Below are positions 7,434-45,556 of a stretch of DNA of 64,000 nt, piece after piece. The stretch comes from a virus, in IMG/VR virus record IMGVR_UViG_3300037840_000216, positions 1 to 64,000 of that record. One strand, written 5' to 3'. Numbering within the stretch: the stretch's first letter is position 1; each line of letters starts with the position of its first letter. The notes below the pieces were generated by a model. That model did not search any database. It saw nothing but the letters and a program-made list of their open reading frames with translations, and was not told the DNA's origin. The translations under genes were made by a program, and so were the position numbers.

Positions 7434-7463
7434 CCATTATTGTAACGGATAACCACGTTTTGA

Positions 7464-7725: not shown

Positions 7726-7730
7726 ATGTT

Positions 7731-7764: not shown

Positions 7765-7785
7765 TCCGCGACGGTACTTTCGTCA

Positions 7786-7858: not shown

Positions 7859-7859
7859 G

Positions 7860-7932
7860 TGGAACCAGGAGGAGTCGAACCCCCGTACTCCGGGCTTCAA
7901 CCGGATGCTCTGACCGACTGAGCTATAGTTCC
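7860..7932 (-). tRNA. tRNA-Phe (GAA)
   Basis: Canonical cloverleaf. Confidence 0.92.
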
Positions 7933-8106: not shown

Positions 8107-8141
8107 CGCCTATTAGGCGACGGCGATAACGAATTTTCCAG

Positions 8142-8225
8142 CGGAAGGTGAAGGAGTCGAACCATCAGGACAAAGCCCTGGCCTAGTTTTCAAGACTAGT
8201 TGCGTCCCACGACGCGCCACCTTCC
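8142..8225 (-). tRNA. tRNA-Ser (TGA)
   Basis: Type II cloverleaf, G73. Confidence 0.88.
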
Positions 8226-8282
8226 AAAGCAGAGGCCCCGCCCGAGAGCCCTATTCGGGCCGGGGGCGGCTACCCCTTTGAG

Positions 8283-8354
8283 ACGCTAGTGCCGGAATCG
8301 AACCGGCCAAGAAACGCTTTGCAGGCGCACACATTACCACTCTGTCAACTAGCG
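8283..8354 (-). tRNA. tRNA-Cys (GCA)
   Basis: Loop CTGCAAA, U73. Confidence 0.85.
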
Positions 8355-8357
8355 AAG

Positions 8358-8429
8358 CTCTGGTGATAGGACTCGAACCTATAACCGTGACCTTAACAGG
8401 GTCCCGCGCTGCCATTGCGCCACACCAGA
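8358..8429 (-). tRNA. tRNA-Asn (GTT)
   Basis: Loop CTGTTAA. Confidence 0.88.
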
Positions 8430-8488
8430 ATAAAAACTCACGAGGTCCTTCGGGATTTCTGATACACTTTGGGGTTCCCCGTGAGTAG

Positions 8489-8574
8489 CGGAAAGAAAGG
8501 GAGTCGAACCCTTAGTGGACTGTTTACCCACGCCTCTTTAGCAAAGAGGTTGCGTCTCCAATTGCCGCCTTTCC
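8489..8574 (-). tRNA. tRNA-Ser (GCT)
   Basis: Type II cloverleaf, short D-arm. Confidence 0.82.
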
Positions 8575-8577
8575 AAA

Positions 8578-8650
8578 AGCCTTCGACGGGATTCGAGCCC
8601 GTAATCTCCAGTTTAGGAAACTGGCGTGATATCCTTTTCACTACGAAGGC
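8578..8650 (-). tRNA. tRNA-Arg (CCT)
   Basis: Loop TTCCTAA. Confidence 0.88.
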
Positions 8651-8662
8651 GCATCATTGTTA

Positions 8663-9106
8663 CTAACCTGACAATCCCAAACGTTTTCTCTCGACTCGAC
8701 AAGACTTACAATATGCACGGGGACCCTTATTTCCACTTGGCATTATCTTCAAACTAAAAGAATCCAATGGAAGTTCTTCTTTACAATGAGCACACCACCA
8801 CATACTCGGTTTAAGATCGTGTAGAGGGGGCTTACCTGGTGAAGAATGGGGTCGATTACACCGGCGATGAGAAAAAGCCAAATTATATTTATCCCAAAAT
8901 GCTTCAGCCCCATGGGTCTCCCATGGAACCTTATGCTCAATGCTTAGCTCGTCTACTGTATCAATAACTTCATTACACACAAAACATATATTGCGATTAG
9001 TCTCGCAGACGAGATCAAACAGAAGTCGTTGGCGCAACCTATGACAGGCCGTACTATAACTCATTCCTAGAATTTCATTCTTCTTTTCGTTACTTCGTGT
9101 AGCCAT
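8663..9106 (-). CDS. HNH endonuclease
   Basis: CFVC..LSIEHKVPW..NLAFSHRRCN plus C-terminal CxxC..CxxC. Confidence 0.85.
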   Translation of the reverse strand: MATRSNEKKNEILGMSYSTACHRLRQRLLFDLVCETNRNICFVCNEVIDTVDELSIEHKVPWETHGAEAFWDKYNLAFSHRRCNRPHSSPGKPPLHDLKPSMWWCAHCKEELPLDSFSLKIMPSGNKGPRAYCKSCRVERKRLGLSG

Positions 9107-9168
9107 CCATTTATTGGGGATTATATACTTGGCTAACCCAAGCTAACCACGCCTTCATGGGACGCCCC

Positions 9169-9366
9169 TTATTCATGGTGTTCTTCTTCGCCACGGTGGG
9201 TGAGTTCCTGGAGCCCTTCGTGAAACTGCTTGTCTTCAATGCTGCGCGTGTGTTCTTCGCACGCGACGCTAAGAGGATGGTCGCACGGGTTTTCGCCGCC
9301 TCCCCCGCATCCAGCTACGCCGCCAAGAAGGACGAGCGCCATAGCGAGTGTCGTTAGTCGCCTCAT
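9169..9366 (-). CDS. Small putative lipoprotein (IS passenger)
   Basis: MRRLTTLAMALVLLGGVAG|C lipobox. Confidence 0.6.
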   Translation of the reverse strand: MRRLTTLAMALVLLGGVAGCGGGGENPCDHPLSVACEEHTRSIEDKQFHEGLQELTHRGEEEHHE

Positions 9367-9449
9367 GGCTCGCTTATCGGCTCTGTCAAGCCCCGACTTG
9401 AGTTCGAGTCTATGGACCGTGCATGGCCTTGGACGCGATGGTGGCGCGC

Positions 9450-9716
9450 ATGGCCCCACGCACAGAGCCGCAGATTGCCCTTGGGCAAGCTATCCGCCAG
9501 ACCAGAACCGCTCGCGGGCTATCGCAGGAGGAGGTCGCCCATGCCGCTGATCTGCACCCCACCTGGATCAGCCACATCGAGGCCGGGAAGAACCCCGCTT
9601 GGGGCACCATCCGCCGTATCGCATCTGCTCTCGGCGTCGAGGTGTCCGAGCTAGCCCGACTGGCCGAGAAGATCGAAGCTCGGCCTGAGACTTGCGATCA
9701 TCGTGAAGCTGGCTAA
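9450..9716 (+). CDS. XRE-family HTH transcriptional regulator (IS passenger)
   Basis: GLSQEEVAHAADLHPTWISHIEAGKNP. Confidence 0.85.
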   Translation: MAPRTEPQIALGQAIRQTRTARGLSQEEVAHAADLHPTWISHIEAGKNPAWGTIRRIASALGVEVSELARLAEKIEARPETCDHREAG

Positions 9717-9987
9717 AGCTCTCGGAATCCCGCCAGCCAAGTTGCTGGACGGGATTCCATAGATCGGGGTCTCTACACTCGAAGGCGTCTCAAGCCAACA
9801 CGGAAGGAGGGAACCCTTTGCAAACCCTCTTGAGGACGCCGGAAAACCCCGGAGTCGGGGATAACCACGCCCATCCGGCTCCCGGCCGTCAGTCGGGCAG
9901 GACTTAGGGGAACTTGGGAAACGACGTGGCAAGTCGGCGGCAAGAGCAAGTCAAGTAGCAAGCCAGTAGGACCGTCGCGTGGTCTGC

Positions 9988-10170
9988 TCACCCGGCGGCA
10001 CCGCTGGCCTGGGGTGGACACCCTCCTAAGTCCTTTTCGGAATCCTTCGGCGGCTTCTTGGGCGCTGGAGGGATCGTCTTGGGATCAACCTCCAGGGCTG
10101 CCTTGATGGCATCCTCGAAGGGCAGCGGGATCGACAGCTTTTTGTCGGAGGGCTTGGGTTGATCGACCAT
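9988..10170 (-). CDS. Small hypothetical protein downstream of transposase
   Basis: GGAGG RBS; LSIPLPFEDAIKAALEVDP. Confidence 0.5.
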   Translation of the reverse strand: MVDQPKPSDKKLSIPLPFEDAIKAALEVDPKTIPPAPKKPPKDSEKDLGGCPPQASGAAG

Positions 10171-10411
10171 CGTGCCCTCCATTCTATCGTTCGTTGAGCG
10201 CCGGCTTAGATGCCCCGGTTAGTCCGACTTATGTTTCACTCTTTTGCTATTCACCAATACATAGTGACGGCCAAACAAGTGAATGTGGTAAGATGTGCTT
10301 GCACACGGTCAGCCGTGGCAACCTCCGCTTGTAAGAGAGGCACCACGACTGACCACCCGAGATTGATTCCAGTTGGACGGCCGTCGTATGGTCGCCGCTG
10401 GATCAATTTCG

Positions 10412-11347
10412 TCAAGTCGATTCGGAGCAGGAACTATAGCGCAGACGCTTTCCCTCTGCCTTCTCCAGGGCAAGCATCGTGCGAGCACCGTCAGTGTTGT
10501 AACGGAAGTCAAACTCGGAGAGATAACGGTGCAGGTGCTCAGCACTGACGTGGTGATAAACGCCGTTGATGCCACGCTTCAAGTTCGCGAAGTATCCCTC
10601 GGCTGAGTTCGTGTACACATCGCCTCGGGCATACTCTTTCTCACCGTGATCGACAATCTCGTGGCTTGCAAAGTCTTGATCTAGCCCCTGATATGAGCGA
10701 TGCTGGTCAGTCATCACGCGGGACTCACGTTCGACGTTCTCACGTACGGCTCCCTTGAGAGTCCTGCCAGTCACATCGGGGACAACCATTGAGCGAACGT
10801 TGCCCTTGCGTTCTACCAGCGAAATGACGGGGGTCTTGTCTATCCCTCCCGTGCCAGTGATTTTACGCTCACGGTCACCTTTGTGCATGTTCTTCGCCTT
10901 GCCACCCACGAATGTCTCATCGACCTCCACGATGCCGCTTAGACGGTCCTGAAAAGGACTCTGATCCATTGCGTGTCTGATGCGATGGAACATGAACCAA
11001 GCGGTCTTGTACGTGACTCCGATCGAGCGATGAAGCTGGTGAGCGCTCATGCCCTTCTTAGACGAGCAGAGTAGATAGAAGGCCAGCAGCCACTTGTTGA
11101 GCGGGATATGGCTCGATTCAAAGATCGTGCCGACCGTGACCGTGAACTGCTTACGGCAGGTCGCACACTTCCAGAGGCGACGTTTGGCTTTGCCTTTGAG
11201 CCTGTACGGCGTTCGATCATGCTCGCCGCAGTGGGGGCATACAGGACCATCCGGCCAGCGAATCCCCTCCAGAAGCTCGGCGGCTGCTTCTGGATCGGCG
11301 AAGTACGGCGCGAGATTAGCCAGGTTGAGAATCCGTTCTCCATCCAT
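10412..11347 (-). CDS. IS1595-family DDE transposase
   Basis: Zn ribbon CPHC..CATC, VEVDET, VMTD, TNSAEG, YLSEFDFRYN. Confidence 0.95.
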   Translation of the reverse strand: MDGERILNLANLAPYFADPEAAAELLEGIRWPDGPVCPHCGEHDRTPYRLKGKAKRRLWKCATCRKQFTVTVGTIFESSHIPLNKWLLAFYLLCSSKKGMSAHQLHRSIGVTYKTAWFMFHRIRHAMDQSPFQDRLSGIVEVDETFVGGKAKNMHKGDRERKITGTGGIDKTPVISLVERKGNVRSMVVPDVTGRTLKGAVRENVERESRVMTDQHRSYQGLDQDFASHEIVDHGEKEYARGDVYTNSAEGYFANLKRGINGVYHHVSAEHLHRYLSEFDFRYNTDGARTMLALEKAEGKRLRYSSCSEST

Positions 11348-11463
11348 GGTTCAGATTCTATTGATGGCGTCGGACGGAACTTTTGGGCGGAGCTATGGCG
11401 CAAAACTCGACTGTCCTACATCGCCCTACTGCCTGAGTCCTGCGCAAGCTACAATAGGCACTT

Positions 11464-11536
11464 GCACGGGTAGCTCAGTCAGTAGAGCGGAGGCTTGATA
11501 CCCCTCGCGTCGCGGGTGCAAATCCCGCCCCGTCTT
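11464..11536 (+). tRNA. tRNA-Ile (GAT)-like, degenerate, inside IS
   Basis: TAGCTCAGTCAGTAGAGC D-arm, loop TTGATAC, T-loop TGCAAAT, acceptor mismatches. Confidence 0.6.
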
Positions 11537-11639
11537 CAGGCCCCGGCTGCTTTGAGCGCCGGGGTCTTCTCGTTTCGCAGCCAGCTATGACTAACTGGGT
11601 TTGCGAAGTACATAATCCCCCAAAACAGGCAGGTGAAAT

Positions 11640-11748
11640 GCCCCCGTAGTTTAGTGGCAACGGACAACGCCCTCCCCAAGAGTGTCGGTGTCCTAAGAAC
11701 GTCGGTCTTTCAAGCCGAAGACGCGGGTTCGAATCTCCGTCGGGGGTA
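11640..11748 (+). tRNA. tRNA-Glu (TTC) with large D-loop insertion, inside IS
   Basis: GCCCCCG/CGGGGGT acceptor, TCGGT-CTTTCAA-GCCGA, GGTTCGAAT. Confidence 0.7.
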
Positions 11749-11845
11749 CTTTTGCTGTCCATAGGACATATCCTACCAAACTACTCTGGGTTTGTCAAGT
11801 GCCTAATCCCCCATTTATTCTATCAAGAAATGGACCTTATTGAAG

Positions 11846-12227
11846 TGGACCATGCGTGAGTCGAACACGCGTCTTGTTGTGATTGTCAATCTAGCTATCT
11901 AGCATCTTTGAAACAGGCTTGACCCGTCTCCACCACTCGGTTTACGTCCAAGAACGTACTGCTTTCGCGGGGTGACAGATATTACTCTATCTTGCTACCA
12001 TCATGCCTTTCTGTTCACAGGTAAACATGAGACCCGGCTCTAGCGACTAAGCTAGAGCGAGATGTGCCTCGCGTGCCGTAAAGCCACCGGAAACGGCAGA
12101 ACCGTCCTGGAAGCTCGCCGGGATAGCGAGGGTGTCATCATTGCCAGTTATGGCTTTTGAGATTTAGGTGTCTCGAACCGATGCACTAGAAGGACTCTCG
12201 GGCAACAATCGAATACCCATATGGCCC
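11846..12227 (-). ncRNA. ssrA: tmRNA
   Basis: GGGCCAT/ATGGTCC-A acceptor with G3.U70, T-arm GCGTG-TTCGACT-CACGC, ATAACT|GGC resume context, tag ending LALA*. Confidence 0.92.
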
Positions 12228-12355
12228 ATATTGCACTGCTCAAGGCGAGGGTCGCCCATTACTTGCTTGTCTTGGATCACACGACCCTCGCCAAGAAACA
12301 AGATACTGGATCACCACCTTTCTTATAGCAGTTGAACGTAGGATTTCTCCTACAA

Positions 12356-12427
12356 TGGACGATGGAGGATTCGAACCTCCAACCACTGCGTTGTCGCCGC
12401 AGCGCTCTCCCATTGAGCTAATCGTCC
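12356..12427 (-). tRNA. tRNA-Val (GAC)
   Basis: Cloverleaf, loop GCGACAA. Confidence 0.85.
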
Positions 12428-12492
12428 ATGCCGCCGTTCACCCGAAGGCTACTAAGCAAACATTCCCTTTCACCCGAAGGCTACTTTGGAAG

Positions 12493-12567
12493 TGCATCGT
12501 GAGGGATTCGAACCCCCGACGCCTGGCTTGTAACGCCAGCGCTCTGGCCATGCTGAGCTAACGATGC
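12493..12567 (-). tRNA. tRNA-Val (TAC)
   Basis: Cloverleaf, loop GTTACAA. Confidence 0.9.
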
Positions 12568-12646
12568 AAGTTGAGGGCGAGCTTATCGCCTCCTTCGTTT
12601 GGCAACCCCGTTGATTCCAGGACTCCAACTACCCTCGATATATCAG

Positions 12647-12718
12647 CGATCTCACGGGGAATCGAACCCCGACTTGCGCTTAGACAGAGCGCCGTGATAA
12701 CCGTTTCACTATAAGACC
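12647..12718 (-). tRNA. tRNA-Asp (GTC)
   Basis: Cloverleaf, G73. Confidence 0.9.
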
Positions 12719-12722
12719 AAAG

Positions 12723-12801
12723 CGGGAGTACAAGGAGTCGAACCTTGCTGTTACTTTCCAAGGGTTTTGGAGGCCCTTCGCTACTCCGGTAGCACACTCC
12801 C
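12723..12801 (-). tRNA. tRNA-Trp (CCA), short D-arm and long variable loop
   Basis: Loop CTCCAAA, canonical T-arm. Confidence 0.7.
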
Positions 12802-12993
12802 AGGCAAAACTAGAGCTTTCCTCCGACGAAGGTCACGGAGCAACTCTACCCTGAACTTTGAGAACCACTGCGGATCATCTAGGTCATGCGTCTCCATCAT
12901 CGCATGATTTGCGGCGGCGAATACCTGCGGACCTAGCTCTTCTTGCGTGAGGTCGCGGTTCAAGTACCTCAACGGTCGTAGTTCTGAGGCCAT
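12781..12993 (-). CDS. Hypothetical protein
   Basis: 70 aa, TG-n-TATAGT directly upstream; 3' end overlaps tRNA-Trp. Confidence 0.4.
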   Translation of the reverse strand: MASELRPLRYLNRDLTQEELGPQVFAAANHAMMETHDLDDPQWFSKFRVELLRDLRRRKALVLPGSVLPE

Positions 12994-13071
12994 GCGAACT
13001 ACTATATCAGATGGTGGCGATATTTCTGACCTTGGCTCTTACTATCGGGACGGTCAAGCGAGTACCATCTA

Positions 13072-13144
13072 AGCCAACAGGAGGAGTTGAACCTCCTTCT
13101 CCGGGTTACGAATCCGGTGCGTCACCACGCAACGCTTTGCTGGC
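13072..13144 (-). tRNA. tRNA-Thr (CGT)
   Basis: Loop TTCGTAA. Confidence 0.85.
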
Positions 13145-13539
13145 ACAAAAGACAAGCGCCGGACTTTCAACTTAGCTTCCCCAGATGCGAGTGCCGCTCG
13201 CTGAGGAGTGAGCCGTAAAACATCCACCAAACGTGTATAGGCATTTCTTGATAACGCCTGGCTTACACGAGTCTTTCTAGGAGGCTTCCGCGAAACTCGC
13301 ATTTTGGCTCTGTAGAGCCAAGTTTCCGAGCCGCGTTCAGGCCGATCCCTCAAGATCAGGGATCGACTACCCCTGAGAGTCGATCAACTGCGAAACGACC
13401 GGCGAAACCATAGATTTTGGCTTGCCTAAGCCAAAAATAAGGCTCGCCCAATCTTGATCGTGGTACTTCAAGGCCGCTCAGGGCGAACAGAAATAAGAGA
13501 TGAGCCGGGCGCAGCTTGCGACTGGCCCGGCTCGCTGAC

Positions 13540-13615
13540 ACCTCTGTAGCTCAACTGTGGCCAGAGCCCCCGGCATTCAACCGGGGAGATGTGGGTCCGA
13601 ATCCCACCAGAGGCA
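13540..13615 (+). tRNA. tRNA-like gene (TTC in anticodon position, A33), probably degenerate
   Basis: CCTCTG/CAGAGG, TAGCTCAA..AGAGC, loop CATTCAA, T-loop TCCGAAT. Confidence 0.55.
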
Positions 13616-13620
13616 TCAAG

Positions 13621-13905
13621 ATGGTGTCGCCAATTGGCAAAGGACTTCGATGGAACCCCGAATGGGGCTATTGGCTATGCCCCAAAGTTCCGTCCGATGG
13701 CCCGTGTAAACTTTGTCGTTCTGATCAAAGTGACCCCCGCGAGATTGGCGTCTCCGGGGGTCTGGCCCAAGGAGATGTTGGCTCCGTGGACTCACCCAAG
13801 GTAGCATCGCGCTCGGCTGCGGCCGAGCTTGGAAGACTGCTCGAATCGCCCGAGATCACAAAGCTGATCGCAGAGCTTGAGGCGACTCGCTGGACCGGAA
13901 GCTAG
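13621..13905 (+). CDS. Hypothetical protein (Cys-containing)
   Basis: ATG just after the + strand tRNA-like gene, followed by a long hairpin. Confidence 0.4.
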   Translation: MVSPIGKGLRWNPEWGYWLCPKVPSDGPCKLCRSDQSDPREIGVSGGLAQGDVGSVDSPKVASRSAAAELGRLLESPEITKLIAELEATRWTGS

Positions 13906-14035
13906 AATCCTCAGAGGGAGGTCCCGCATCGGCTGGCCTCGCGGCCTCAGAGTCGGCGAGTTACCGGACGGGACCTTCCTCTGAGGACTTTCGCAGTTCG
14001 TTTCGCCGGACCCTCCTAGGAGGAGCAACCCTCCA

Positions 14036-14108
14036 AGCCTACAGGCAGAATCGAACTGCCGACCTCTTCCATACCAAGGAAGCGCTCTATCAACTGAGCT
14101 ATGCAGGC
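14036..14108 (-). tRNA. tRNA-Thr (GGT)
   Basis: Canonical cloverleaf. Confidence 0.92.
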
Positions 14109-14355
14109 ACGAAGATCCGGCGTCATACTCACTGTCGTCACAGTATAGAGCAGCGGACGACCCGGACCATACAACAAACCCGTCTATGACGGGGCGCTCC
14201 GCCCGCTACCCTCTACCGGGGGCCGACTGAGCAATTGGGTGGGAGAGCAGGCCACGAACCCTGCGTACACCGTGCGAATAGGCGACTTGGGTGGCCGACA
14301 GTTCCGACAGCCCATATGCCACCGTCATTCCTGTCGATCTCCAGCGATCTCCCAA

Positions 14356-14429
14356 TCAGGGTAGCGGGCTTCGATCCCGCGACCTCTTCGCTCCGAACGA
14401 AGCGCGCTACCAAGCTGCGCCATACCCTG
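14356..14429 (-). tRNA. tRNA-Pro (CGG)
   Basis: Cloverleaf, loop TTCGGAG. Confidence 0.88.
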
Positions 14430-14518
14430 TGGTGGGGCTTGCCATCCGGCAGCTAACCGGTGCTCCCCTCTCCATGACGTTGATGTGCCAGGAGTGTCTA
14501 GGATGTGAACCCTATAGT

Positions 14519-14600
14519 GCGCCATGCGGGAATCGAACCCGCAACCCTTATTGCTCCTCTCCCGAATGGGCGGCTAGCCTGGGTCTACCTATGAATGGCG
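14519..14600 (-). ncRNA. tRNA-like RNA without a recognisable anticodon arm
   Basis: CGCCAT/ATGGCG stem plus perfect T-arm GCGGG-TTCGATT-CCCGC. Confidence 0.45.
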
Positions 14601-14601
14601 A

Positions 14602-14696
14602 TGCGCCAGATGGGATTCGAACCCACATTCGCTTGTGTGAAAAACAAGTGCTGTGGCCGGTTTTTGACGCCGACTCTACCGTTCAGCTACTAGCGC
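14602..14696 (-). tRNA. tRNA-Glu (TTC) with D-loop hairpin insertion
   Basis: CTTGT-TTTTCAC-ACAAG, canonical T-arm, D-loop ~30 nt. Confidence 0.7.
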
Positions 14697-14834
14697 TTGT
14701 GTGCGATCCGATTACTCTCTGGCGAAGTCCAGGTATCGGTTCTCTGTGTCCAAGTTACCTTCGATCTCCCACAGAGCAATTTGGCTCGCCCCTCGCACGG
14801 AGCAGAAGTTCGGCGCTTGCAAACGCCTCACAAG

Positions 14835-14905
14835 TCGGGGATGCAGGAATCGAACCTGCGCTTGAAGTATCCAAGACTCCGGTGATACCATTTCACTAAT
14901 CCCCG
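14835..14905 (-). tRNA. tRNA-Pro (TGG)
   Basis: Canonical cloverleaf. Confidence 0.9.
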
Positions 14906-14965
14906 TGACGCGCCCACGAGCCGAAGCTGAGGGCGCATGCGGAGAGTTGCCTCTCCGGGTCCTAC

Positions 14966-15502
14966 TTATTCCGAGTAGGTAAACGTCGCACTCGCCGGGC
15001 TCGTCCCGTTTGGAGTGGTAACGGTCACATCTACCGATGTTCCGTTTGTGCCTGCCGGTGAATCGACAGTGACCTCTGTCTCTGAGACGACAACGACGTT
15101 CGTTGCCTCCGCTGAGCCGAAGGCGACTGCGGTTGCTCCGGTGAGGGCAGTTCCCCACACCGTGACCGCAGTTCCGCCAACAGCCGTGCCGCTGGTCGGG
15201 CTCACTGCGGTGACGGTCGGTGCGACCGGCGGAGTTACAGCGTTGTTGAGTGCCGTTGTGTTGGCCTCAACCTGCGTAGTGTTGGTCTGGACAGCCGTCG
15301 TTGCCGCGTCTACCGCAGCCTGATCGGCGTCACTCGTGATTGCTGCGACCGCTGCCTCAACGGCAGTCGTGTTGGCCGCTACTGCGGACTCGTTAGCGGC
15401 AACTGCCGCTGTTAGTGCTTCGGTGTTTGCCACTAGTTTCCTCTGCTCTCGTAGTAGGTGCTCCAAAACCTCTAGAAGAGGCTCGTGGTGTCTGTATTCC
15501 AA
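14966..15502 (-). CDS. Ala-rich coiled-coil protein with IPT/TIG domain
   Basis: AAGGAGG-N5-TTG start; PTVTAVSPTSG..GGTAVTV.GT..VAFG..FTY. Confidence 0.8.
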   Translation of the reverse strand: MEYRHHEPLLEVLEHLLREQRKLVANTEALTAAVAANESAVAANTTAVEAAVAAITSDADQAAVDAATTAVQTNTTQVEANTTALNNAVTPPVAPTVTAVSPTSGTAVGGTAVTVWGTALTGATAVAFGSAEATNVVVVSETEVTVDSPAGTNGTSVDVTVTTPNGTSPASATFTYSE

Positions 15503-15528
15503 TAGACCCTCCTTAATTGGATGGGTAG

Positions 15529-15601
15529 TGGACCGCGTGGGAATCGAACCCCTTCTCCGCATTGCAAGTGCAGTGTGTGACCCATCACAACCGCGCAGCC
15601 C
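15529..15601 (-). tRNA. tRNA-Ala (TGC), atypical D/T arms
   Basis: G3.U70, loop CTTGCAA. Confidence 0.75.
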
Positions 15602-15613
15602 ATTTACTTCAGA

Positions 15614-15687
15614 TGCCCCCAGTCGGGTATGATCCGACATCCCAAGGTTAAAAGCCAAGTGCGTTCTCCATTTACGCTCATAGGGGC
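15614..15687 (-). tRNA. tRNA-Lys (TTT), degenerate
   Basis: Loop CTTTTAA; T-loop ATCATAC; anticodon-stem mismatches. Confidence 0.55.
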
Positions 15688-15801
15688 AGGCTCCCCAGAG
15701 CAGAGCGCCAGCGCTTCAAAGCGGCGGGCTCCACGCTTGCGATTACTCTGGGGTACTACAACTGCTTGCTGATGTTTGTGATAGCGGAGTCATGTCCGCA
15801 G

Positions 15802-15884
15802 TGCCGTCCGAGAGAGTCGAACTCTCATGCTCTTACGAGCGGCCGGTTCTAAGCCGACTGCGTATACCATTCCACCAGGACGGC
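15802..15884 (-). tRNA. tRNA-Leu (TAG)
   Basis: Type II cloverleaf. Confidence 0.9.
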
Positions 15885-16016
15885 ATGTCCTCCTGCTCTC
15901 GATGCAAGGAGGGGTACTTTTTCTGTATTCATTCTTCGACATCGAGAGCGTGCCGTCCCACCAACTCCCTGGCGGGTGGGCTAGAGCTGCCATCGGTCTT
16001 ACACCCTAAAGTCTTA

Positions 16017-16100
16017 TGCGCAGGGAGGGACTCGAACCCTCACGCCCTTGCGGGCACACGGATCTGAACCGTGCACGTCTACCAATTCCGACACCAGCGC
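16017..16100 (-). tRNA. tRNA-Leu (CAG)
   Basis: Type II cloverleaf. Confidence 0.9.
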
Positions 16101-16202
16101 AAGTAGTAGGGTCAGTCGAGAGGCGCAGCTTGTGTGATGCCATCTGCTCACCCAATCGACTGTAGAGGAGAAAGCATCACCGATCTCCCCGATTCCCTAC
16201 AG

Positions 16203-16287
16203 TACGCTGAGCGGGACTCGAACCCGCACGAGCTTTCGCTCATAACCTCCTCAAGGTTACATGCCTACCAAATTACATCACCAGCGC
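16203..16287 (-). tRNA. tRNA-Leu (GAG)
   Basis: Type II cloverleaf. Confidence 0.9.
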
Positions 16288-16405
16288 AAGTGATTATGCT
16301 AAACCTCGCATACACGCGAGGCAAATTTTCCAAAGAGAGATGGCGGCAATGATTTATGACCTTTGCTCTTACTATCGGGACGGTCAGGTGAGAGCCATCT
16401 CTAAG

Positions 16406-16485
16406 TGCCAGCGGTAGGAATCGAACCTACTTGGGCTACGCGCGACCGCTTTACAGGCGGCTTACAGTCCATCTGTGTCACTGGC
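16406..16485 (-). tRNA. tRNA-Tyr (GTA), short D-loop
   Basis: Loop CTGTAAA, long variable region. Confidence 0.8.
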
Positions 16486-16783
16486 ATATTCTAGCATCCG
16501 GGCGCGAACCCGAGGTTCCTAACTCGCTGGACTGCCCGCCTATGTAATGGGCTTGTCCCCTTAGCGAGGGGTCATCACAGGACCGGAGCTTTATAGGCGA
16601 CTCCCAAACTTCTGGGCCGGTGCTGCTGCGGAATCGATCGGAATGGCTACCGTACCGCTGGCAATGCTATGTTTCGACAGTATAGCAAACCATCTGCCTC
16701 CTGTCTAGAGGGTCTGTTGGGGCTCGAACCCAACCTAATCGGCGACCTGTTCGCCAGCCCTTTCTTGATATAGGTTCTAAGTA

Positions 16784-16852
16784 TGCCCCTCGTGGGAGTT
16801 GAACCCACCCTCAAAGATTAGAAGTCTTCGGCCTAGTTCCGCTAGGAAGGGC
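16784..16852 (-). tRNA. tRNA-Arg (TCT), non-canonical compact fold
   Basis: CTAG-CGGAA-CTAG D-arm, 6-bp anticodon stem, 3-nt variable loop. Confidence 0.75.
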
Positions 16853-39638: not shown

Positions 39639-41582
39639 ATGAAATATCACCTCCTTACTGATGGGCTACTTGATAAAATCGAAATGCTTTCTCGGGATGA
39701 GCAAGAGCGATGGCTTTTCTTGTCCGAGAGCGAGGAGTTCAAAGGCCGTTGGGAAGTAAAAGGAATTTGGCCAACTTGGTTTTTTGACCTGGAGTCTATT
39801 GTGGGCCATTTCCGTACGGTTTCGCCCGCCCGTCTAAAGGATTTCATTGAGGCGTGTGACGATTATTATCAAATAGTTTTTGAGACCCCACCAGAGTCAA
39901 TTTTGACAATATATGAAGATCTACAGAACCCACCGCCTTTTGCGTTGAACTCAAATCTACCCAACACCATTCACGGGATGTTTCCGTGGCAAGTAGAAGG
40001 CTTCAATCGGCTGATCAAAGATGAATCACTCGGGGCCGGTCTAGCGATCTGGGCCACGGGGGCTGGAAAGACTGCGTTTCTTGCTTCAGCTATCAAGTGG
40101 CATGAAACCGAGGGTCATCCATATGATCTCGCCTTGGTGGTAGTGAAGAAGAATAACAAGATTGATATGCAGCGAAAGCTCAAAGCGCTTGCTAATCTCG
40201 ATTCGTTTGTAGTGATAGGAACACCCACTAAACGCAATGCTGTCTATGACGAAATGTCTGCTCGTCTAGAGGCAAAGGAAAAAGTCATCCTCGTTACCAA
40301 TTATGAGAACTTTCGTCAAGACGACGAGGCATTCAAGTGGCTGATGGAAGATCGGGACTGCTTGATCCTGTGGGATGAGATGCCTACGCGCCTGAGCAAC
40401 CGTACCACACAAGTTTACGAGGCTGTGCAAAAGTGCCTTTGGAAGACCTTCCAGCCGCGCACAGGGCTCCCGACGCCTAGACCTAGCTGGATGCGTCAAT
40501 GGATGCTAACAGCCACTCCGATCGAGAATAGTCCTGAAGGTCTTTTCAACCAAATTAGATTGCTAGATCCGACGCTTCTCGGTACTGTTGGGCAATTTGA
40601 GTCCAATTACGTAGTCAATCGCAATCCCATTTCACACAAGCCGGAACGATGGGGACGGCTTGATAAGCTAGAGGGAAAGATTGAGTTCATGACACATCGC
40701 GTAAGTTTGGCCGATCCAGAAGTGGCTAAGTTGTTCCCCGAGGTCATGGAGGACACACTGATCATCGATTGGGACCCACGGGATCGCGCCATCTACGACA
40801 TGCTTGCCACAAATGCTGTCAAGATCCTCGAAGAAGAATCAGAGTCAGAAGAATTCAACGTGTTGGCGCTCATTCAAGTAATGCAGATGATGTGTGATGC
40901 GCCTTCAATGATCGGAAAGTCGGCAGAGAACCACAAAGAGTTCAAGAAAGTCCTCGCAGAGCTAGGGGGAGAAGAAGATGACATGCCGCGTCTTATGAAG
41001 GGATCGGAGATTGCTGTACGCCTGGTCGAAACGCTGCGGAAAGCGCCAACCGATGAGCGACACACTAAGTTTGAGACACTCAAAGAAATCCTCACCGAGA
41101 AACATCCCGATGACAAGGTGCTTGTATACATGACTTGGGCCTCTTATGGTTTTGAGCCGATGGAAAAGAAGCTCAACGAGTGGGGCATCAGCTATGTCGC
41201 TTACGCGGGCACAGACAAACAACGCCAGGCGGCTAAGGATGCCTTTCGTGCCGACCCTGACATTCGGGTCTTCCTATCCAGCGATAAGGGTTCGGATAGC
41301 ATCGACCTCCCCGAGGCGGCTGTAGGCGTGCATTTCAATCAGCCCTGGACCTGGACTCGAAAGCAGCAGAGGGAGGGCAGGAACAACCGGGTCGATAGCT
41401 TGCTCCCGACTACGTTTTGGTACTCGTTGACGATGGCAGGCTCAGTGGAGGATCGCAAGCAGGAAATACTAGCGACTAAGCGTGGCTATCACGAGGCTCT
41501 CTTCGATGGCAAAGCCGCAGAGGACGCGATGGCCTCTAAGCTTTCACGCGAGGATTTGGTCTGGATTTTGACCGGCTCTTGA
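39639..41582 (+). CDS. SNF2-like (SF2) DNA helicase
   Basis: PWQ, TGAGKT, WDEM, LTATPIEN, SSDKGSDSIDL, PW..QREGR..R. Confidence 0.88.
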   Translation: MKYHLLTDGLLDKIEMLSRDEQERWLFLSESEEFKGRWEVKGIWPTWFFDLESIVGHFRTVSPARLKDFIEACDDYYQIVFETPPESILTIYEDLQNPPPFALNSNLPNTIHGMFPWQVEGFNRLIKDESLGAGLAIWATGAGKTAFLASAIKWHETEGHPYDLALVVVKKNNKIDMQRKLKALANLDSFVVIGTPTKRNAVYDEMSARLEAKEKVILVTNYENFRQDDEAFKWLMEDRDCLILWDEMPTRLSNRTTQVYEAVQKCLWKTFQPRTGLPTPRPSWMRQWMLTATPIENSPEGLFNQIRLLDPTLLGTVGQFESNYVVNRNPISHKPERWGRLDKLEGKIEFMTHRVSLADPEVAKLFPEVMEDTLIIDWDPRDRAIYDMLATNAVKILEEESESEEFNVLALIQVMQMMCDAPSMIGKSAENHKEFKKVLAELGGEEDDMPRLMKGSEIAVRLVETLRKAPTDERHTKFETLKEILTEKHPDDKVLVYMTWASYGFEPMEKKLNEWGISYVAYAGTDKQRQAAKDAFRADPDIRVFLSSDKGSDSIDLPEAAVGVHFNQPWTWTRKQQREGRNNRVDSLLPTTFWYSLTMAGSVEDRKQEILATKRGYHEALFDGKAAEDAMASKLSREDLVWILTGS

Positions 41583-41848
41583 TAGCCTGCTATACTCAAA
41601 CTTCGTAGACGAGAGCTAGGAGATGTGCGCTGACTCTGGAAGTCGGCAGCATCCAAAGCCAAACATACAGACAAGAGGTATCGTAATGAATATCGTTCTA
41701 GAGATAAAGGGGACCCCTGGGGTCTAAATCCGGGACGCCACCTTGGCGCTTCCCCTTCCGTGAAGCAACTGGCCACGAGCCGCGCTACCAGCCGCAAAGC
41801 AAGGGAGCGCGGCTCGTGGGGTTTTACGTCGTCCCCAGCCCCAGCTAC

Positions 41849-42075
41849 GGCATGCAGGGCTCGGTTTGGCAGGCAGGGCGGAGCAGGGTTCGGTTGGGTC
41901 TGGTGAGGCTTGGCGGGCTTGGCTGGGCTGAGTAGGGTTGGGCTCGGTAGGGTTTGGCAGGCTTGGTTGGCGTGGTAAGGTCTGGTTAGGCACGGCGCGG
42001 TTCGGCATAGTTAGGCAGGCGAGGCAAAGCGGTGTTCGGTGAGGCTCGGTATGGCGAGGCTTGGTTTAGTGAGGC
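41849..42075 (+). repeat. Array of ~41 GGY-NN pentamers punctuated by GGC(A/G)GGC junctions; candidate guide-RNA array
   Basis: Direct parse, e.g. GGC-GA GGC-AA AGC-GG TGT-TC GGT-GA GGC-TC GGT-AT GGC-GA GGC-TT GGT-TT AGT-GA; junctions at 41868, 41912, 41956, 42014. Confidence 0.9.
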
Positions 42076-43040
42076 GATTTGCCAAGAAGACCGAGAAGAG
42101 CTTCAATGAGGCGTCGATAGTGCCACGTTGGTCTTGCATCGCTAGAGACAGACATCTCGGTTGCGTGAGCAAAGCGGTGTGTGATTCGAGTTGCTTTATC
42201 GACCTCATAGAAGGGCGAAGGTTCCGGGTAAGGCATTGCGGGTCCAATCGTAGCCAATAGTCGTTGACGCGATTGCCCTTCACTAACGACTTCGACGGGC
42301 AGCGATGGGGCTCGGACCAAGGATCGATTAGGATCGGTAGCGTGGCGCACCATGTTGCGAGTGCGGATGGGGACATCGTCTGAGAGGCTCGTGTCTGTAG
42401 TCGAGCGGAAGAAGTGGGTGAGGATTGTCGCCCGGTCTGCGGACAGAGCTTTCTCTTCCTCTTCGCGTATGGGCTCCCCCGCACGAGCGATCCAGACGCG
42501 CGTCGGCGTGCCCTCCACGGTCAGTGCGAAGTCCCCCGACGCCTCAGCTTCTTTCCGTTTCGGAGGCGTTTCGGTGTTGACTCCACGGATGCGTGGGTAG
42601 GTGTAGCCGAAGTCCACGAAGACGAGGCTGAGCGTCTTCGAGGTTGACCACTCCCGCCCGAGGGAATCGAGCACAGTCAGGCTGATCTCTGTATCCGGGT
42701 CGGCGACCTCGTAGGTGTGCGTGACGGTCGGTCCGTGTCCGACATGTCCGTCCCCGAAGTCCCAACGGTACTCCAGGATGGTGACGCCCGGAGGCGGCTG
42801 AACGTGGGGCTGGACTTTGGATTCGACTTCGAATGGTTCCGCGTGGAACTCGACAGCGAGGAACACCGGGGTCGTGCCCCAGGCGTAGCGGTAGTCGCTG
42901 CCTTTGTCACTCGGCAGTGGAGGGTACGGATAGGTGTCGCCGTCGTACGTGGCGCTGCCTAGAGGGCCTGCCTGTTCGAAGTAGAAGTCTACGGTGACCG
43001 GAAGGGCGGGGCGGTTTGGATCGTTGACAATGGAGGTCAT
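42066..43040 (-). CDS. PKD-domain virion protein
   Basis: YRWDFGDG..GPTVTHTY..LTVLD. Confidence 0.75.
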   Translation of the reverse strand: MTSIVNDPNRPALPVTVDFYFEQAGPLGSATYDGDTYPYPPLPSDKGSDYRYAWGTTPVFLAVEFHAEPFEVESKVQPHVQPPPGVTILEYRWDFGDGHVGHGPTVTHTYEVADPDTEISLTVLDSLGREWSTSKTLSLVFVDFGYTYPRIRGVNTETPPKRKEAEASGDFALTVEGTPTRVWIARAGEPIREEEEKALSADRATILTHFFRSTTDTSLSDDVPIRTRNMVRHATDPNRSLVRAPSLPVEVVSEGQSRQRLLATIGPAMPYPEPSPFYEVDKATRITHRFAHATEMSVSSDARPTWHYRRLIEALLGLLGKSPH

Positions 43041-45556
43041 TAGAACACCGCGATGTTGTGGGTGGCGTGGTTGCGTAGGCCGTTGCGGTCAATCGTAATC
43101 AGCGTGACGGCGTATTCGCCGGGGAGCGAGTAGGTGTGTTCTTCCTGAAGGCTGTTGCCCACCGAAAACGCACCATCGCCAAAGTTCCATTCGCGTGTGA
43201 CGATGGCTCCGGTGCCAGGGGTCGATTCGTCGGTGAACTTGAAGGACCTCGCTTCGATCCCTTTCGATTTGAATTGCGCATCCGGGGGAATCAGATCCTC
43301 AAGACGTTCCTCTGGCCACACGAGCCGCCCAAGGGAGGCGTAGCGAGGTACGATCTTTGGTGTCTTGATGGTGGCGTTCTGGCGCAGCGCTCGGGCGCGT
43401 AGCTGAAGTTCCTTGCCACGAGGCTGGAGCAGGATGCCCTTGCGGTTGACGTTGACGATCTCGCGGAAGTCCGTCCACGGTGCGTAGTTGCTGTCCCATG
43501 GGTCGCTGACGGTCGAGCGAGCGCTCCACTGCACGACACGCTCAAAGATGGACACGCTGTCGATCCACCAGGTAGAAGCGATCTCGGTGGGCTGAAGGAT
43601 CTGAACCTGGTAGTTGCCTGTCTGGAGGATCTCTTCTTCCGGCACTCGAATGATGATCTCCTGCCACTGGTTCGTTTCGAGTTCTGGCGTCGGCAGCGGG
43701 ATGATGGTGCCTTCGCTGCTCACGAGGCGCACCGCTATGTTTGGGAACTGTCTCTGGTCGAAGGTGGTGAAGCCTTTGCTCGGGAAGGTGCCTTTGCTCG
43801 GGAAGGTGCGGTGGCGGCTTGGGAAAGTCGGGCGGTGTTTGTCTTCGATGGTTTCCACGGTGCGTGGTTCGCCCGCGTACCAGATGAAGAACTTGATCTC
43901 TGCCTGCTCGAAGTTGCTGAAGTTGATAAAGTCGGTCGTGAGCCCGACGTTGTGTTCAGTGCCATTGGTGTCCACCCGGAAGCTTTCAGCGGTGAGCGCG
44001 CGCGACTTGTCGCGCGAGAGCGTGATGCCTTTAGCCGACGCCGGGGTGATCTTGAAGCCCTGGTTCCAGAGTTCTTCGTTGCCGGTGTAGCTCGCGAAGA
44101 GTTGGGCTCCATCCACGGGCGTAAAGCTGGTGAGAGGAGCGGACTGATACTCGGCGAAGACGACACCGCGCGGTCGGATCGAGCCGACGTAGGCATCGGG
44201 GTCAGGTAGGTATGCCTTCCAGCCAACGCGCCCCTGGCGGCGGCGGAAGACACCATCGTCGTTGACCAGCGTCGTGTCGAAGATCGGTGTCTGTTCTACG
44301 GACTTGTCGGGGGCAAGCTTATAGATGCGCACGCGGGCTCCCGAATCTTCGAGCGAGCAGGTCATGAGGTATTCGGTGTTGTCGAGCAGTTCAGGGAGAG
44401 CATTCGGGCCGTGGTCGGGGAAGACGTAGCCGGGGCTCACCGAGTTGTTCATGATCAGCTTTCGTTTGCCTTCGCCCCATTGTAGAGTGAAGGTGATCCA
44501 ACTCTCCTCAATGGGGTTGGCCACAGGTAGACGCTCTAGGTCTTTCATCTTCTCCAGGTGGTCGAAGCGCGACATGGGCTGTTTGTCGAATTCGCCTACG
44601 GTGCGGGGGACGAACTCTTCGGTGCCGAGGTCAGGCTGCGGGTGCCCATCAAGCTCGGACTGTGTGGTCCCGATGAGGTCAAGCTGCGTCTGGAAGATTA
44701 GCGGCTCCTCGCGCATGTAGAAGACGAGTTCGTTCAGGTGTAGCTGTGAGCCAGGGTTGAAGACGAGGCCGAACTCGGCATCGACCGGCTTGGGGTCGTT
44801 GTAGCCAGGTAGGAGGTCTGACTTCCACATGATGCCCTGTTCGAGCAGCGGGCCGCTCGTCACGTCTCCGTCGAGCGGGTTGGGCTGGCGCAGCATGCCG
44901 TTGAAATTGTCGTAGTCCACCGTGGACACCACCCATCCAGGATTGCCTGGCGTGGGAGCGAGGATGAGCTTAATGCCCATGACGCCCATGTCGGTTTCTT
45001 CCCCTTCGTTGCACACGATGGTGAAGCGCACTCCGGTGATGGCTTCGAGGTCGATTTCGTTCTGCTGCAACGCCGCGCGTTCGATGACGAACTGACTGTC
45101 TCCTTCGATCAGCGCTTTGAGGCTCTCCGAGAACGAGAGGGTCGCGGTGACTGCGGTGTTCGAGCAGTGGCCTGCCGGGTCGGACGTGATTTTGATCCTG
45201 CTCTGGACGATGTTGATCGCCGGGAGGTTGAAATCGGGGAGCGCGAATGTGAAGAGGTCCGTGTCCGCAAAGCCGGTGAGCAGATCGACTGGGTGGTCCG
45301 GCGTGGCTGATTCTGTTTCCGTCGTGCCCTTGCATTCCAGAACGAGCGTTGGGAAGTAGTGGAGCGACGAGCGGTAGGTGAATGTGCCCTCGGTCCAAGC
45401 CTCGCCCGAGGTCGGCACGAACGTGCGCAGATCAACGTGCCGCTGGAACGGCAACTGATCTTTGGTTTCCACTTCGAACGAGTCGTAGTACATCCACGCT
45501 CGCTCTGTGAACTCCTCGCCTAGAGGAACATTGGATCTTTCGCGTTCAAGTGCCAT
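43040..45556 (-). CDS. Minor tail/baseplate protein with C-terminal PKD domain
   Basis: FTDES..WNFGDG..HTY..PGEYAVTL. Confidence 0.75.
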   Translation of the reverse strand: MALERERSNVPLGEEFTERAWMYYDSFEVETKDQLPFQRHVDLRTFVPTSGEAWTEGTFTYRSSLHYFPTLVLECKGTTETESATPDHPVDLLTGFADTDLFTFALPDFNLPAINIVQSRIKITSDPAGHCSNTAVTATLSFSESLKALIEGDSQFVIERAALQQNEIDLEAITGVRFTIVCNEGEETDMGVMGIKLILAPTPGNPGWVVSTVDYDNFNGMLRQPNPLDGDVTSGPLLEQGIMWKSDLLPGYNDPKPVDAEFGLVFNPGSQLHLNELVFYMREEPLIFQTQLDLIGTTQSELDGHPQPDLGTEEFVPRTVGEFDKQPMSRFDHLEKMKDLERLPVANPIEESWITFTLQWGEGKRKLIMNNSVSPGYVFPDHGPNALPELLDNTEYLMTCSLEDSGARVRIYKLAPDKSVEQTPIFDTTLVNDDGVFRRRQGRVGWKAYLPDPDAYVGSIRPRGVVFAEYQSAPLTSFTPVDGAQLFASYTGNEELWNQGFKITPASAKGITLSRDKSRALTAESFRVDTNGTEHNVGLTTDFINFSNFEQAEIKFFIWYAGEPRTVETIEDKHRPTFPSRHRTFPSKGTFPSKGFTTFDQRQFPNIAVRLVSSEGTIIPLPTPELETNQWQEIIIRVPEEEILQTGNYQVQILQPTEIASTWWIDSVSIFERVVQWSARSTVSDPWDSNYAPWTDFREIVNVNRKGILLQPRGKELQLRARALRQNATIKTPKIVPRYASLGRLVWPEERLEDLIPPDAQFKSKGIEARSFKFTDESTPGTGAIVTREWNFGDGAFSVGNSLQEEHTYSLPGEYAVTLITIDRNGLRNHATHNIAVF

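What the first reader, a model, noticed from the sequence alone, without database searches (positions are those of the whole stretch)
41283..42075. Array block D spells a gapped target in the adjacent helicase gene, skipping every wobble base
Seen: block D (42018-42072) NN = GA AA GG TC GA TC AT GA TT TT GA. The helicase motif-V region 41283-41315 reads GAT AAG GGT TCG GAT AGC ATC GAC CTC CCC GAG (DKGSDSIDLPE), whose codon positions 1-2 are GA AA GG TC GA AG AT GA CT CC GA. Eight of 11 dinucleotides are identical. Two of the three differences are synonymous codon-family swaps (Ser TCN vs AGC; Leu TTR vs CTC), and both TT mismatches are U.G-compatible. A rough hand estimate of >=8/11 by chance is ~4e-8 per position, and the hit lies ~700 bp away. 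Inference: the code is NN-x-NN-x, insensitive to third-position changes and aimed at the homologous helicase of related competing phages. This phage would evade it by Ser/Leu recoding, or else it autoregulates.
Basis: partly seen in the sequence, partly recalled or inferred. Interest (0 to 1): 0.95.

Follow-up and report, generated by a model that had tools for sequence, protein, structure and literature searches.

The report
Orphan VIPR guide array targeting helicase
This soil phage carries a guide-RNA array of the recently described VIPR system but no VIPR protein gene, and its last guide spells, skipping every third base, a conserved helicase motif as sibling phages encode it; it is a good new example of a known system.

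Summary
Block D (42018-42072) and helicase codons 41283-41315 share 8 of 11 dinucleotides in the NN-x register.

The array (41849-42077) is a VIPR vrRNA array, a kind described in three 2026 bioRxiv preprints. These report GGY/NN pentamers whose NN bases pair with DNA while skipping one base, usually the codon wobble base. They also report orphan arrays in vipr-less phages.

The raw self match is weak: 17/22 bases, P = 0.03-0.10. The guide-target relation is still not chance:
- At codon-family level block D fits DKGSDSIDLPE at 10/11, reached by 0 of 1000 shuffles and 0 of 126 foreign guides.
- Sibling phages match better, at 19/22 or 20/22 (0 of 2000 permuted guides).
- Whole sibling records show only the helicase site at up to 3 mismatches.

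Caveats:
- No vipr gene lies in the 84-kb record, which is 53% complete.
- Blocks A-C have no target.
- The Pro codon mismatches everywhere.
- "Escape by Ser recoding" is indistinguishable from background.

This is a new member of a known kind. This scan had already noted VIPR arrays on other DNA (643 notes).

The parts
39639..41582 (+). SNF2-family helicase gene (647 aa), conserved in all sibling phages
   Evidence: ORF; translation; Pfam Helicase_C 6.2e-13 and SNF2-rel_dom 4.3e-08; siblings at 71-82% identity
41283..41315 (+). Self copy of the site spelled by block D (DKGSDSIDLPE). NN-x register in frame, with the skipped base at the codon third position. 17/22 informative bases (0.77)
41568..41596 (+). 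Promoter-like site TTGACC-17-TATACT with TG extension (10/12), pointing into the insert
   Evidence: consensus scan only: 1 found against 0.3 expected
41686..41727 (+). 13-codon ORF MNIVLEIKGTPGV* behind an AGAGGT Shine-Dalgarno-like motif. It resembles the first strand of Vipr proteins. A possible vipr remnant, not significant
   Evidence: best tblastn 26.6 bits against up to 35.8 bits in about 200 random control regions
41767..41823 (+). Strong hairpin (14-bp main stem 41773-41786 / 41806-41819) followed by TTTT, between the promoter-like site and the array
   Evidence: -35.7 kcal/mol, z = -3.2
41849..42077 (+). VIPR-type vrRNA array: 47 units, 85% canonical GGY, 87% 5-nt units. It is cut by 4-nt units GGCA (41849, 41868, 41956, 42014), GGCG (41912) and GGTT (41965). 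Sub-blocks: A 41872-41911, B 41916-41955, C 41969-42013
   Evidence: (unique in the 84-kb record)
42018..42077 (+). NN = GA AA GG TC GA TC AT GA TT TT GA GA. 3 of 12 scaffolds are non-canonical (AGC, TGT, AGT)
42066..43040 (-). Convergent PKD-domain gene, syntenic in siblings. Its last four codons overlap the end of block D. It marks the right edge of the roughly 483-bp lineage-specific insert (41583-42065)

Best explanation
The G-rich 5-nt-periodic tract is an orphan (vipr-less) VIPR vrRNA array of the 'staggered' GGCA-delimited kind. It was inserted, in this lineage only, between the SNF2 helicase gene and the convergent PKD-domain gene.

In VIPR, as published, Vipr protomers polymerise along the vrRNA and bury each GGY. 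They present each NN to pair with two bases of one DNA strand while one target base per unit is flipped out. The result is binding and transcriptional silencing of a gapped target that usually sits in codon register.

Block D is a guide whose code spells the invariant helicase block DKGSDSIDLPE as sibling phages encode it (0.86-0.91 identity). Its match to the carrier's own copy is lower (0.77).

Shown here:
- the array anatomy;
- membership of the array class through its association with Vipr genes elsewhere;
- the non-chance guide-to-helicase relation;
- the absence of vipr and vap genes in the held record.

Inferred, not shown:
- that the RNA is made;
- that a Vipr protein is supplied from the unsequenced half of the genome, a co-infecting phage or a prophage;
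- that binding silences rivals' helicase;
- that 0.77 spares self.

The array may equally be a recent relic of a lost VIPR locus.
For: 1. Class.
- 82 of the 120 fetched loci carry, beside the array, an ORF matching my profile of array neighbours at E<1e-5, and 80 of these cover >=60% of it.
- These ORFs are phrog_4652. Their profile hits PDB 36pp_D 'SUSP1 Vipr protein' at E = 5.5e-32.
- An AlphaFold model of one member has pLDDT 84.8.
- The published definition (9-16 YNNGG units, 1-nt skip, wobble register, staggered arrays) is.

2. Anatomy. GGCA is the commonest 4-nt unit in 53 foreign arrays, with 131 occurrences. The same unit delimits the blocks here.

3. Target.
- Codon-family fit is 10/11, against 0 of 1000 shuffles and 0 of 126 foreign guides.
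- Siblings score 19/22 (L001-type, L124, L126, L127, L128) and 20/22 (L139).
- 0 of 2000 base-permuted guides reach 20/22 on the same 74.7 kb, and the maximum over 200 Markov surrogates is 18.
- At up to 3 mismatches, block D hits once each in 4 of 5 whole sibling records, including one complete 170-kb genome. Every hit is at the helicase site, and the reversed control gives 0.
- The 18-base pattern found 6 IMG/VR stretches: 5 are this helicase and 1 is unrelated.
- The third positions differ freely among siblings while the NN bases are kept.

4. Orphan status. There is no phrog_4652 or phrog_15946 match at E<=10 in the 84-kb record and no hit with my profile. VIPR-null phages with solo vrRNAs whose self score is below their non-self score are in print.

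5. The insert is lineage-specific. None of the 13 sibling contigs has an array or vipr in the fetched flanks. None of 5 whole records has either, and 2 of those are 100% complete.
Against: - No Vipr protein gene lies in the held record, and the two complete sibling genomes have none either. No effector is in sight.
- The self match alone is weak (P about 0.03-0.10).
- The Pro codon (CC against guide TT) mismatches in all 13 sibling contigs. No perfect target was found.
- Blocks A, B and C, and joined A+B or extended C, have no hit above shuffles in the own genome or the sibling loci. Block C has none at up to 3 mismatches in 5 sibling records.
- Block C's single exact IMG/VR hit is out of codon register in an unrelated 45% GC contig, at about the number I estimate for chance.
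- 3 of block D's 12 scaffolds are non-canonical, and one (TGT) lacks GG.
- A strong hairpin with a T-run lies between the only promoter-like site and the array.
- 4 of the 9 protein-retrieved sibling contigs score only 17/22, the same as self.
Confidence: 0.8

Rival explanations
1. Relic. The guide-target relation is historical. The vipr-vap genes were deleted and the array is decaying without function. On this view the TT TT of units 9-10 are C-to-T decay from an ancestral CT CC that matched siblings perfectly.
For: - No vipr or vap gene.
- All three base differences to L001-type targets are T in the guide against C in the target.
- Block D has 9 of 12 canonical scaffolds, against a median of 0.90 in 53 foreign arrays.
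- There are 1-nt slips (GGCG, GGTT) inside otherwise regular runs.
- A possible vipr start remnant is present.
Against: - The whole-array figures (85% canonical GGY, 87% 5-nt units) lie inside the 10-90% range of foreign arrays.
- Orphan arrays are reported as functional 'guns for hire'.
- The same sequence flanks the array in a second soil metagenome of another study, so the form is circulating.
- The record is only 53% complete.
Confidence: 0.35
2. Chance resemblance. Block D is a VIPR guide with some other, unknown target. The helicase match arises from codon-like NN composition: GA occurs four times and TC twice.
For: - Base-level self match is P = 0.03-0.10, and 17 of 126 foreign guides do as well.
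- 9 of 175 arbitrary windows reach 8/11 somewhere in the genome.
- Better scores in siblings partly follow from common Ser and Leu family switching.
Against: - Composition-preserving shuffles never reach the codon-family fit (0 of 1000) or the sibling score (0 of 2000).
- Foreign natural guides reach at most 8/11.
- The register is in frame.
- There is a single hit per whole sibling record, with a zero control.
Confidence: 0.08
3. Autoregulation. The array's RNA, with a Vipr protein, tunes the carrier's own helicase through the imperfect 0.77 site.
For: The site lies 703 bp upstream, on the same strand sense. U.G-tolerant counting gives 20/22 on self (D11 own site by the wobble rule).
Against: - No Vipr gene is present.
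- The preprints report no self hits >=0.8, and that broken NN pairing abolishes silencing.
- With wobble allowed, the self score is not above shuffles (30 of 300).
- Siblings without the array keep the same helicase.
Confidence: 0.04
4. Not a guide array at all. The tract is a DNA- or RNA-level element such as a Rho-dependent terminator (its minus-strand RNA is C-rich), a G-quadruplex or R-loop tract, or a decayed pentanucleotide microsatellite.
For: - The tract lies between convergent genes.
- The plus strand is 47% G and 16% C, so the minus-strand RNA would be C-rich and G-poor.
Against: - The same GGY-NN architecture sits beside Vipr genes in 82 of 120 loci.
- GG is conserved while NN is free.
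- It shows the GGCA boundaries typical of the class.
- Siblings do without the tract.
Confidence: 0.03

Closest known systems
VIPR systems (Vipr RAMP protein + vrRNA). bioRxiv 10.64898/2026.04.26.720920 (sections 4, 10, 18, 20, 26, 27 read) and 10.64898/2026.04.26.720927 (abstract and section 6 read)
   Same: Tandem GGY/NN pentamers. Guides of 9-16 units. NN bases spell a target with a one-base skip falling on codon third positions. The target lies in a competing phage. Identity is >=0.8 to non-self and <0.8 to self. 'Staggered' arrays lack separate tails.
   Different: There is no vipr and no vap gene at the locus or in the held 84 kb. The reference systems are from E. coli phage SUSP1 and a Pseudomonas prophage, whereas this is a tRNA-rich soil phage of a roughly 168-170-kb lineage. 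The best target found is 20/22, not perfect.
Solo/orphan vrRNAs of VIPR-null phages and satellites. bioRxiv 10.64898/2026.10.15.759431 (abstract and sections 8, 17, 25, 26, 29 read)
   Same: A phage that has vrRNAs but no vipr-vap. The self score is lower than the score on rivals. The implied use is of someone else's Vipr protein.
   Different: - The published orphans carry 1-2 vrRNAs in Enterobacteriaceae phages and are assigned to vipr genes, other vrRNAs or satellites. Here there are about 4 guide blocks and the target is an essential helicase of sibling phages that themselves lack VIPR.
- A clean deletion scar relative to a VIPR+ relative could not be shown, because no VIPR+ relative was found.
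Class 1 CRISPR (Cas7 backbone with crRNA)
   Same: RAMP protomers tile a guide RNA, and thumbs interrupt pairing periodically. This is stated in the preprints and was not tested here.
   Different: The interruption is 3 guide bases and 1 target base per 5-nt unit, instead of every sixth position. There are no repeat-spacer units, no adaptation genes and no PAM.
Orphan CRISPR arrays and phage RNA anti-CRISPRs (recalled, from no call)
   Same: Guide-like RNA genes carried without the effector, acting through another element's protein.
   Different: This is a different protein family and a different code. It is an analogy only.

Membership tests
VIPR vrRNA array | Tandem 5-nt units GGY+NN, at least 4 units, guides of 9-16 units | tested here: met
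   47 units, 85% canonical GGY, 87% 5-nt. Block D has 12 units in register.
VIPR vrRNA array | The same architecture co-occurs with Vipr (RAMP) genes elsewhere | tested here: met
   82 of 120 pattern-found loci have a Vipr-like ORF. They are phrog_4652. Their profile hits PDB 36pp_D, SUSP1 Vipr, at E = 5.5e-32.
VIPR system (complete) | vipr gene at the locus | tested here: not met
   No match at E<=10 in the 84-kb record. Only a non-significant 13-codon look-alike is present. The record is 53% complete.
VIPR system (complete) | vap accessory gene | tested here: not met
   phrog_15946, the common array neighbour in my loci, is absent from the record. Other vap families were not searched.
VIPR vrRNA array | Natural target obeying the 1-nt skip rule at >=80% NN identity, with self <80% | tested here: met
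   Siblings score 19/22 and 20/22, self 17/22. This holds for block D only.
VIPR vrRNA array | Skipped base falls on the codon wobble position | tested here: met
   The site is in frame with ORF 39639-41582. Third positions vary among siblings.
VIPR vrRNA array | Conserved 3' tail/pseudoknot (type II) or staggered boundaries | tested here: inconclusive
   No repeated tail was seen. GGCA boundaries match the commonest 4-nt unit of foreign arrays. Of fig. S18 only the legend was seen, and supplements are closed.
VIPR vrRNA array | vrRNA expressed, bound by Vipr, and binds or represses its target | not testable with these tools
   No RNA holder is listed. Only DNA contigs were laid.
Solo vrRNA of a VIPR-null phage | vipr-vap deletion relative to VIPR+ relatives | tested here: inconclusive
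   None of the 13 sibling contigs has any VIPR in the fetched flanks, and neither do the 5 whole sibling records searched, so there is no VIPR+ reference. The remnant is not significant.

The most novel reading that the evidence does not exclude
A VIPR-null soil phage keeps a multi-guide orphan array in order to borrow a third party's Vipr protein, from a prophage or a co-infecting phage. It turns that protein against the essential SNF2 helicase of its own sibling phages. Self is spared by the only kind of synonymous change the gapped code can see: a switch between the two serine codon families (TCN to AGC) in the middle of the target. That would make sixfold-degenerate codons the arena of VIPR escape and self/non-self discrimination between near-identical phages.
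Probability: 0.15. Interest if true: 0.6.

Novelty: new member of a known kind. Interest (0 to 1): 0.35.

Why it matters

It extends the orphan-vrRNA phenomenon, described for Enterobacteriaceae phages, to a large tRNA-rich soil phage. The predicted target class is an invariant motif of an essential helicase shared by carrier and rivals. The VIPR sections I read do not list that class; supplementary target tables were not seen.

It also gives a natural allelic series for testing how many mismatches, and which kind, VIPR tolerates:
- L139, TCA/TTG, 20/22;
- L001-type, TCC/CTC, 19/22;
- own and L134, AGC/CTC, 17/22;
- L002-type, AGC at the other Ser codon, 17/22.

The series would also test whether rU.dG pairs count. 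None of this changes the known mechanism.

Tried and rejected
- Rfam scan of 40500-43500 at E<=1 gave only a chance miRNA-like match. An Rfam scan of four foreign array loci found no ribozyme in the arrays.
- blastn of 39639-43040 against the phage collection gave no match.
- Coding hypothesis for the tract (Pro-rich minus-strand ORF P0003; pentapeptide repeats in any frame). There was no Pfam hit. Frames are open only because of composition, and arrays elsewhere are intergenic. Rejected.
- My first reading was a Rho-terminator, G-quadruplex or decayed microsatellite. I dropped it.
- vipr remnant. tblastn of 82 Vipr-like ORFs on 41560-41870 gave at most 26.6 bits, against up to 35.8 bits on about 200 random control regions. 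The remnant is not shown.
- Targets for blocks A, B, C, joined A+B and extended C. Nothing rose above shuffles. Block C has no hit at up to 3 mismatches in 5 sibling records. Its one exact IMG/VR hit is out of register in an unrelated contig.
- Blocks A and B were not scanned in collections. By my estimate 16 informative bases would give tens of chance hits.
- Ser-recoding as escape. 8 of 18 invariant Ser columns, 22 of 39 Leu and 8 of 24 Arg columns mix codon families among 8 helicases. In the tree, L134 (AGC) is sister to L139 (TCA). No special signal.
- Sequencing runs. No RNA holder is listed. Two soil DNA runs from two studies hold the stretch, and one may be the source. Laid contigs were identical, and in the second run none covered 41860-42035. 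This gives no information on expression or variants.
- I made no fold search of model mb8261ba7e8b3, because the sequence hit to the solved Vipr protein answered the question.
- Supplementary files of the three preprints (target tables, figs S17-S22) were closed. They may already list soil-phage orphans or helicase targets.
Full report
**Observation**

The window is a tRNA-rich phage record with 35 tRNA genes and GC 0.56. It is an 84,467-bp IMG/VR record that CheckV rates 53% complete.

ORF 39639-41582 (+) is an SNF2-family helicase. A convergent PKD-domain gene ends at 42066.

Between them lies a G-rich tract with the strongest 5-nt GG periodicity and the highest G content of the whole record.

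Block D (42018-42072) gives NN = GA AA GG TC GA TC AT GA TT TT GA. Codons 41283-41315, in frame, give GA AA GG TC GA AG AT GA CT CC GA. That is 8 of 11 dinucleotides, or 17 of 22 bases.

**What the tract is**

Their arrays are 40-1546 nt long.
- The arrays are intergenic. Most follow a plus-sense gene of about 200 aa at a gap of 1-50 nt.
- These neighbours cluster together and are phrog_4652. They carry a C-terminal GxGDxRPxxGxF loop.
- A profile of 15 of them hits the solved 'SUSP1 Vipr protein' (PDB 36pp_D) at E = 5.5e-32. One member folds confidently, with pLDDT 84.8.
- With my own profile, 82 of the 120 loci hold such an ORF at E<1e-5.

A literature search then found bioRxiv 10.64898/2026.04.26.720920. 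It defines VIPR as follows:
- a Vipr RAMP protein;
- vrRNAs made of 9-16 YNNGG repeats;
- NN bases that recognise double-stranded DNA with a one-base skip, which usually falls on codon wobble positions;
- targets in competing phages;
- a working threshold of >=80% NN identity, with no self hits above it;
- array variants, including 'staggered' arrays.

A structural companion preprint shows Vipr protomers burying GGY and flipping out one target base per unit. A third preprint, from October 2026, describes hundreds of vipr-less phages carrying solo vrRNAs. Their self scores are below their scores on rivals.

**Anatomy here**

A dynamic-programming parse gives 47 units. 4-nt units cut the run: GGCA at 41849, 41868, 41956 and 42014, GGCG at 41912 and GGTT at 41965.

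GGCA is also by far the commonest 4-nt unit in 53 foreign arrays, with 131 occurrences. That fits the staggered architecture.

Block D begins right after a GGCA and runs 12 units to the array end. Its limits are therefore natural, not chosen.

Other features:
- The whole array is 85% canonical GGY, within the foreign range of 0.79-0.94.
- Block D has 9 of 12 canonical scaffolds.
- A promoter-like site (10/12, TG-extended) sits at 41568-41596.
- A strong hairpin with a T-run sits at 41767-41823.

**No effector**

No phrog_4652 or phrog_15946 match exists in the record at E<=10, and my profile finds nothing either.

The 13-codon ORF at 41686-41727 looks like a Vipr N-terminus. However, tblastn scores on this region are below those on random control regions.

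The insert (about 41583-42065) is lineage-specific. In all 13 sibling contigs the helicase is followed by no array in the fetched flank, and in the three read directly (L001-L003) the convergent gene follows the helicase with little or no spacer. Five whole sibling records, two of them complete at 168-170 kb, have neither vipr nor arrays.

**Is the helicase match real?**

Taken alone, the self match is weak.
- 17/22 is reached by 30 of 300 dinucleotide shuffles.
- It is reached by 3.15% of 2000 base permutations.
- It is reached by 17 of 126 natural guides from other phages.
- 9 of 175 arbitrary windows get 8/11 somewhere in the genome.

Three things change the picture.

First, at the level a wobble-blind code addresses (codon families), block D fits DKGSDSIDLPE at 10 of 11 positions. 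The maximum in 1000 shuffles is 9 (2 cases), and the maximum over 126 foreign guides is 8.

Second, siblings match better than self. Among the 9 contigs retrieved by protein similarity:
- one scores 10/11, or 20/22 (L139, with TCA and TTG);
- four score 9/11, or 19/22 (L001, L135-L137);
- four score 8/11 (L002, L003, L134, L138).

Four further contigs (L124, L126-L128) score 9/11. They were found with a pattern that demanded units 1-8 and 11, so they are biased.

On the same 74.7 kb of sibling loci, 0 of 2000 permuted guides reach 20/22 and one reaches 19. 200 Markov surrogates reach at most 18.

Third, specificity is high. At up to 3 mismatches, block D hits once each in 4 of 5 whole sibling records, always at this site. 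The reversed control gives none. The IMG/VR-wide 18-base pattern returned five helicase homologues and one unrelated stretch.

The siblings differ freely at the skipped positions (GAT/GAC, GGT/GGA/GGG, TCG/TCA/TCC and so on), while the NN bases stay fixed.

**What is not supported**

- The Pro codon (CC against TT) mismatches in every sibling, so no perfect target exists in what I searched. All guide-versus-L001 differences are T against C. That fits either rU.dG tolerance (22/22 with wobble, 0 of 300 shuffles) or C-to-T decay of a once-perfect guide.
- The idea that the carrier escaped by recoding Ser to AGC is compatible with the data but not distinguishable from background. 8 of 18 invariant Ser columns mix families. 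The array-less L134 shares AGC, while its sister L139 has TCA.
- Blocks A-C have no identifiable target.
- Expression could not be examined.

**Verdict**

The finding is real and correctly decoded, but the system has been in print since April 2026 and orphan arrays since October 2026. This scan has already logged 643 VIPR-type notes in at least 423 genomes, including a solo array spelling a neighbouring gene as rivals carry it.

This is a new member of a known kind. It has a useful natural allelic series for mismatch testing, and a predicted target class (a sibling phages' essential helicase motif) that I did not see in the sections of the preprints I read.

Noticed in passing
L139:3919-4854 (metagenome contig ODAK010000158.1): The closest sibling's SNF2 helicase carries an in-frame insert of about 312 aa between residues about 306 and 304 of the window's protein. 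It shows Intein_splicing similarity below Pfam's cut-off (29.6 against 35.8 bits). The window's copy has no such insert.
   Followed up: partly
L019:3257-3739, L056:1371-1898(-), L077:2439-2930, L087:4657-5109(-) and others: A second conserved array neighbour is phrog_15946, of unknown function, with motif FEWND..A...R..QAR. It lies downstream of many arrays: 27 loci at E<1e-3 with my profile. It is probably one of the published vap accessory genes. I did not test which.
   Followed up: partly
L005:3968-4575, L045:2145-2427, L092 (flipped orientation) 4830-5542, L048 (flipped orientation) 6597-7271: Some foreign arrays are interrupted by repeated non-pentamer modules of about 30-60 nt, for example one ending TTTTTCAGGC in L005. 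These are possibly vrRNA tails. Rfam found no ribozyme in them.
   Followed up: partly
window 41686-41727 and 41790-41830: A short ORF MNIVLEIKGTPGV* behind a Shine-Dalgarno-like AGAGGT, and a frame reading ..RERGSWGF.., resemble the first strand and the G-loop end of Vipr proteins. Neither is statistically significant.
   Followed up: yes
window 2904-16852: 35 tRNA genes lie in a 14-kb island, mostly on the minus strand. The cumulative GC skew has its minimum near 22 kb, and the AT skew flips at the 42-kb strand switch.
   Followed up: no
control genomes: phrog_4652 (Vipr-like) rings in Caulobacter vibrioides and Thermotoga maritima. phrog_15946 rings in Caulobacter vibrioides, Thermus thermophilus and Deinococcus radiodurans. 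These are presumably prophage or chromosomal VIPR loci.
   Followed up: no
window 42066-42077: The last two to three units of block D overlap the last four codons (KSPH) and the stop codon of the convergent PKD-domain gene. The insert may therefore have remodelled that gene's C-terminus.
   Followed up: no
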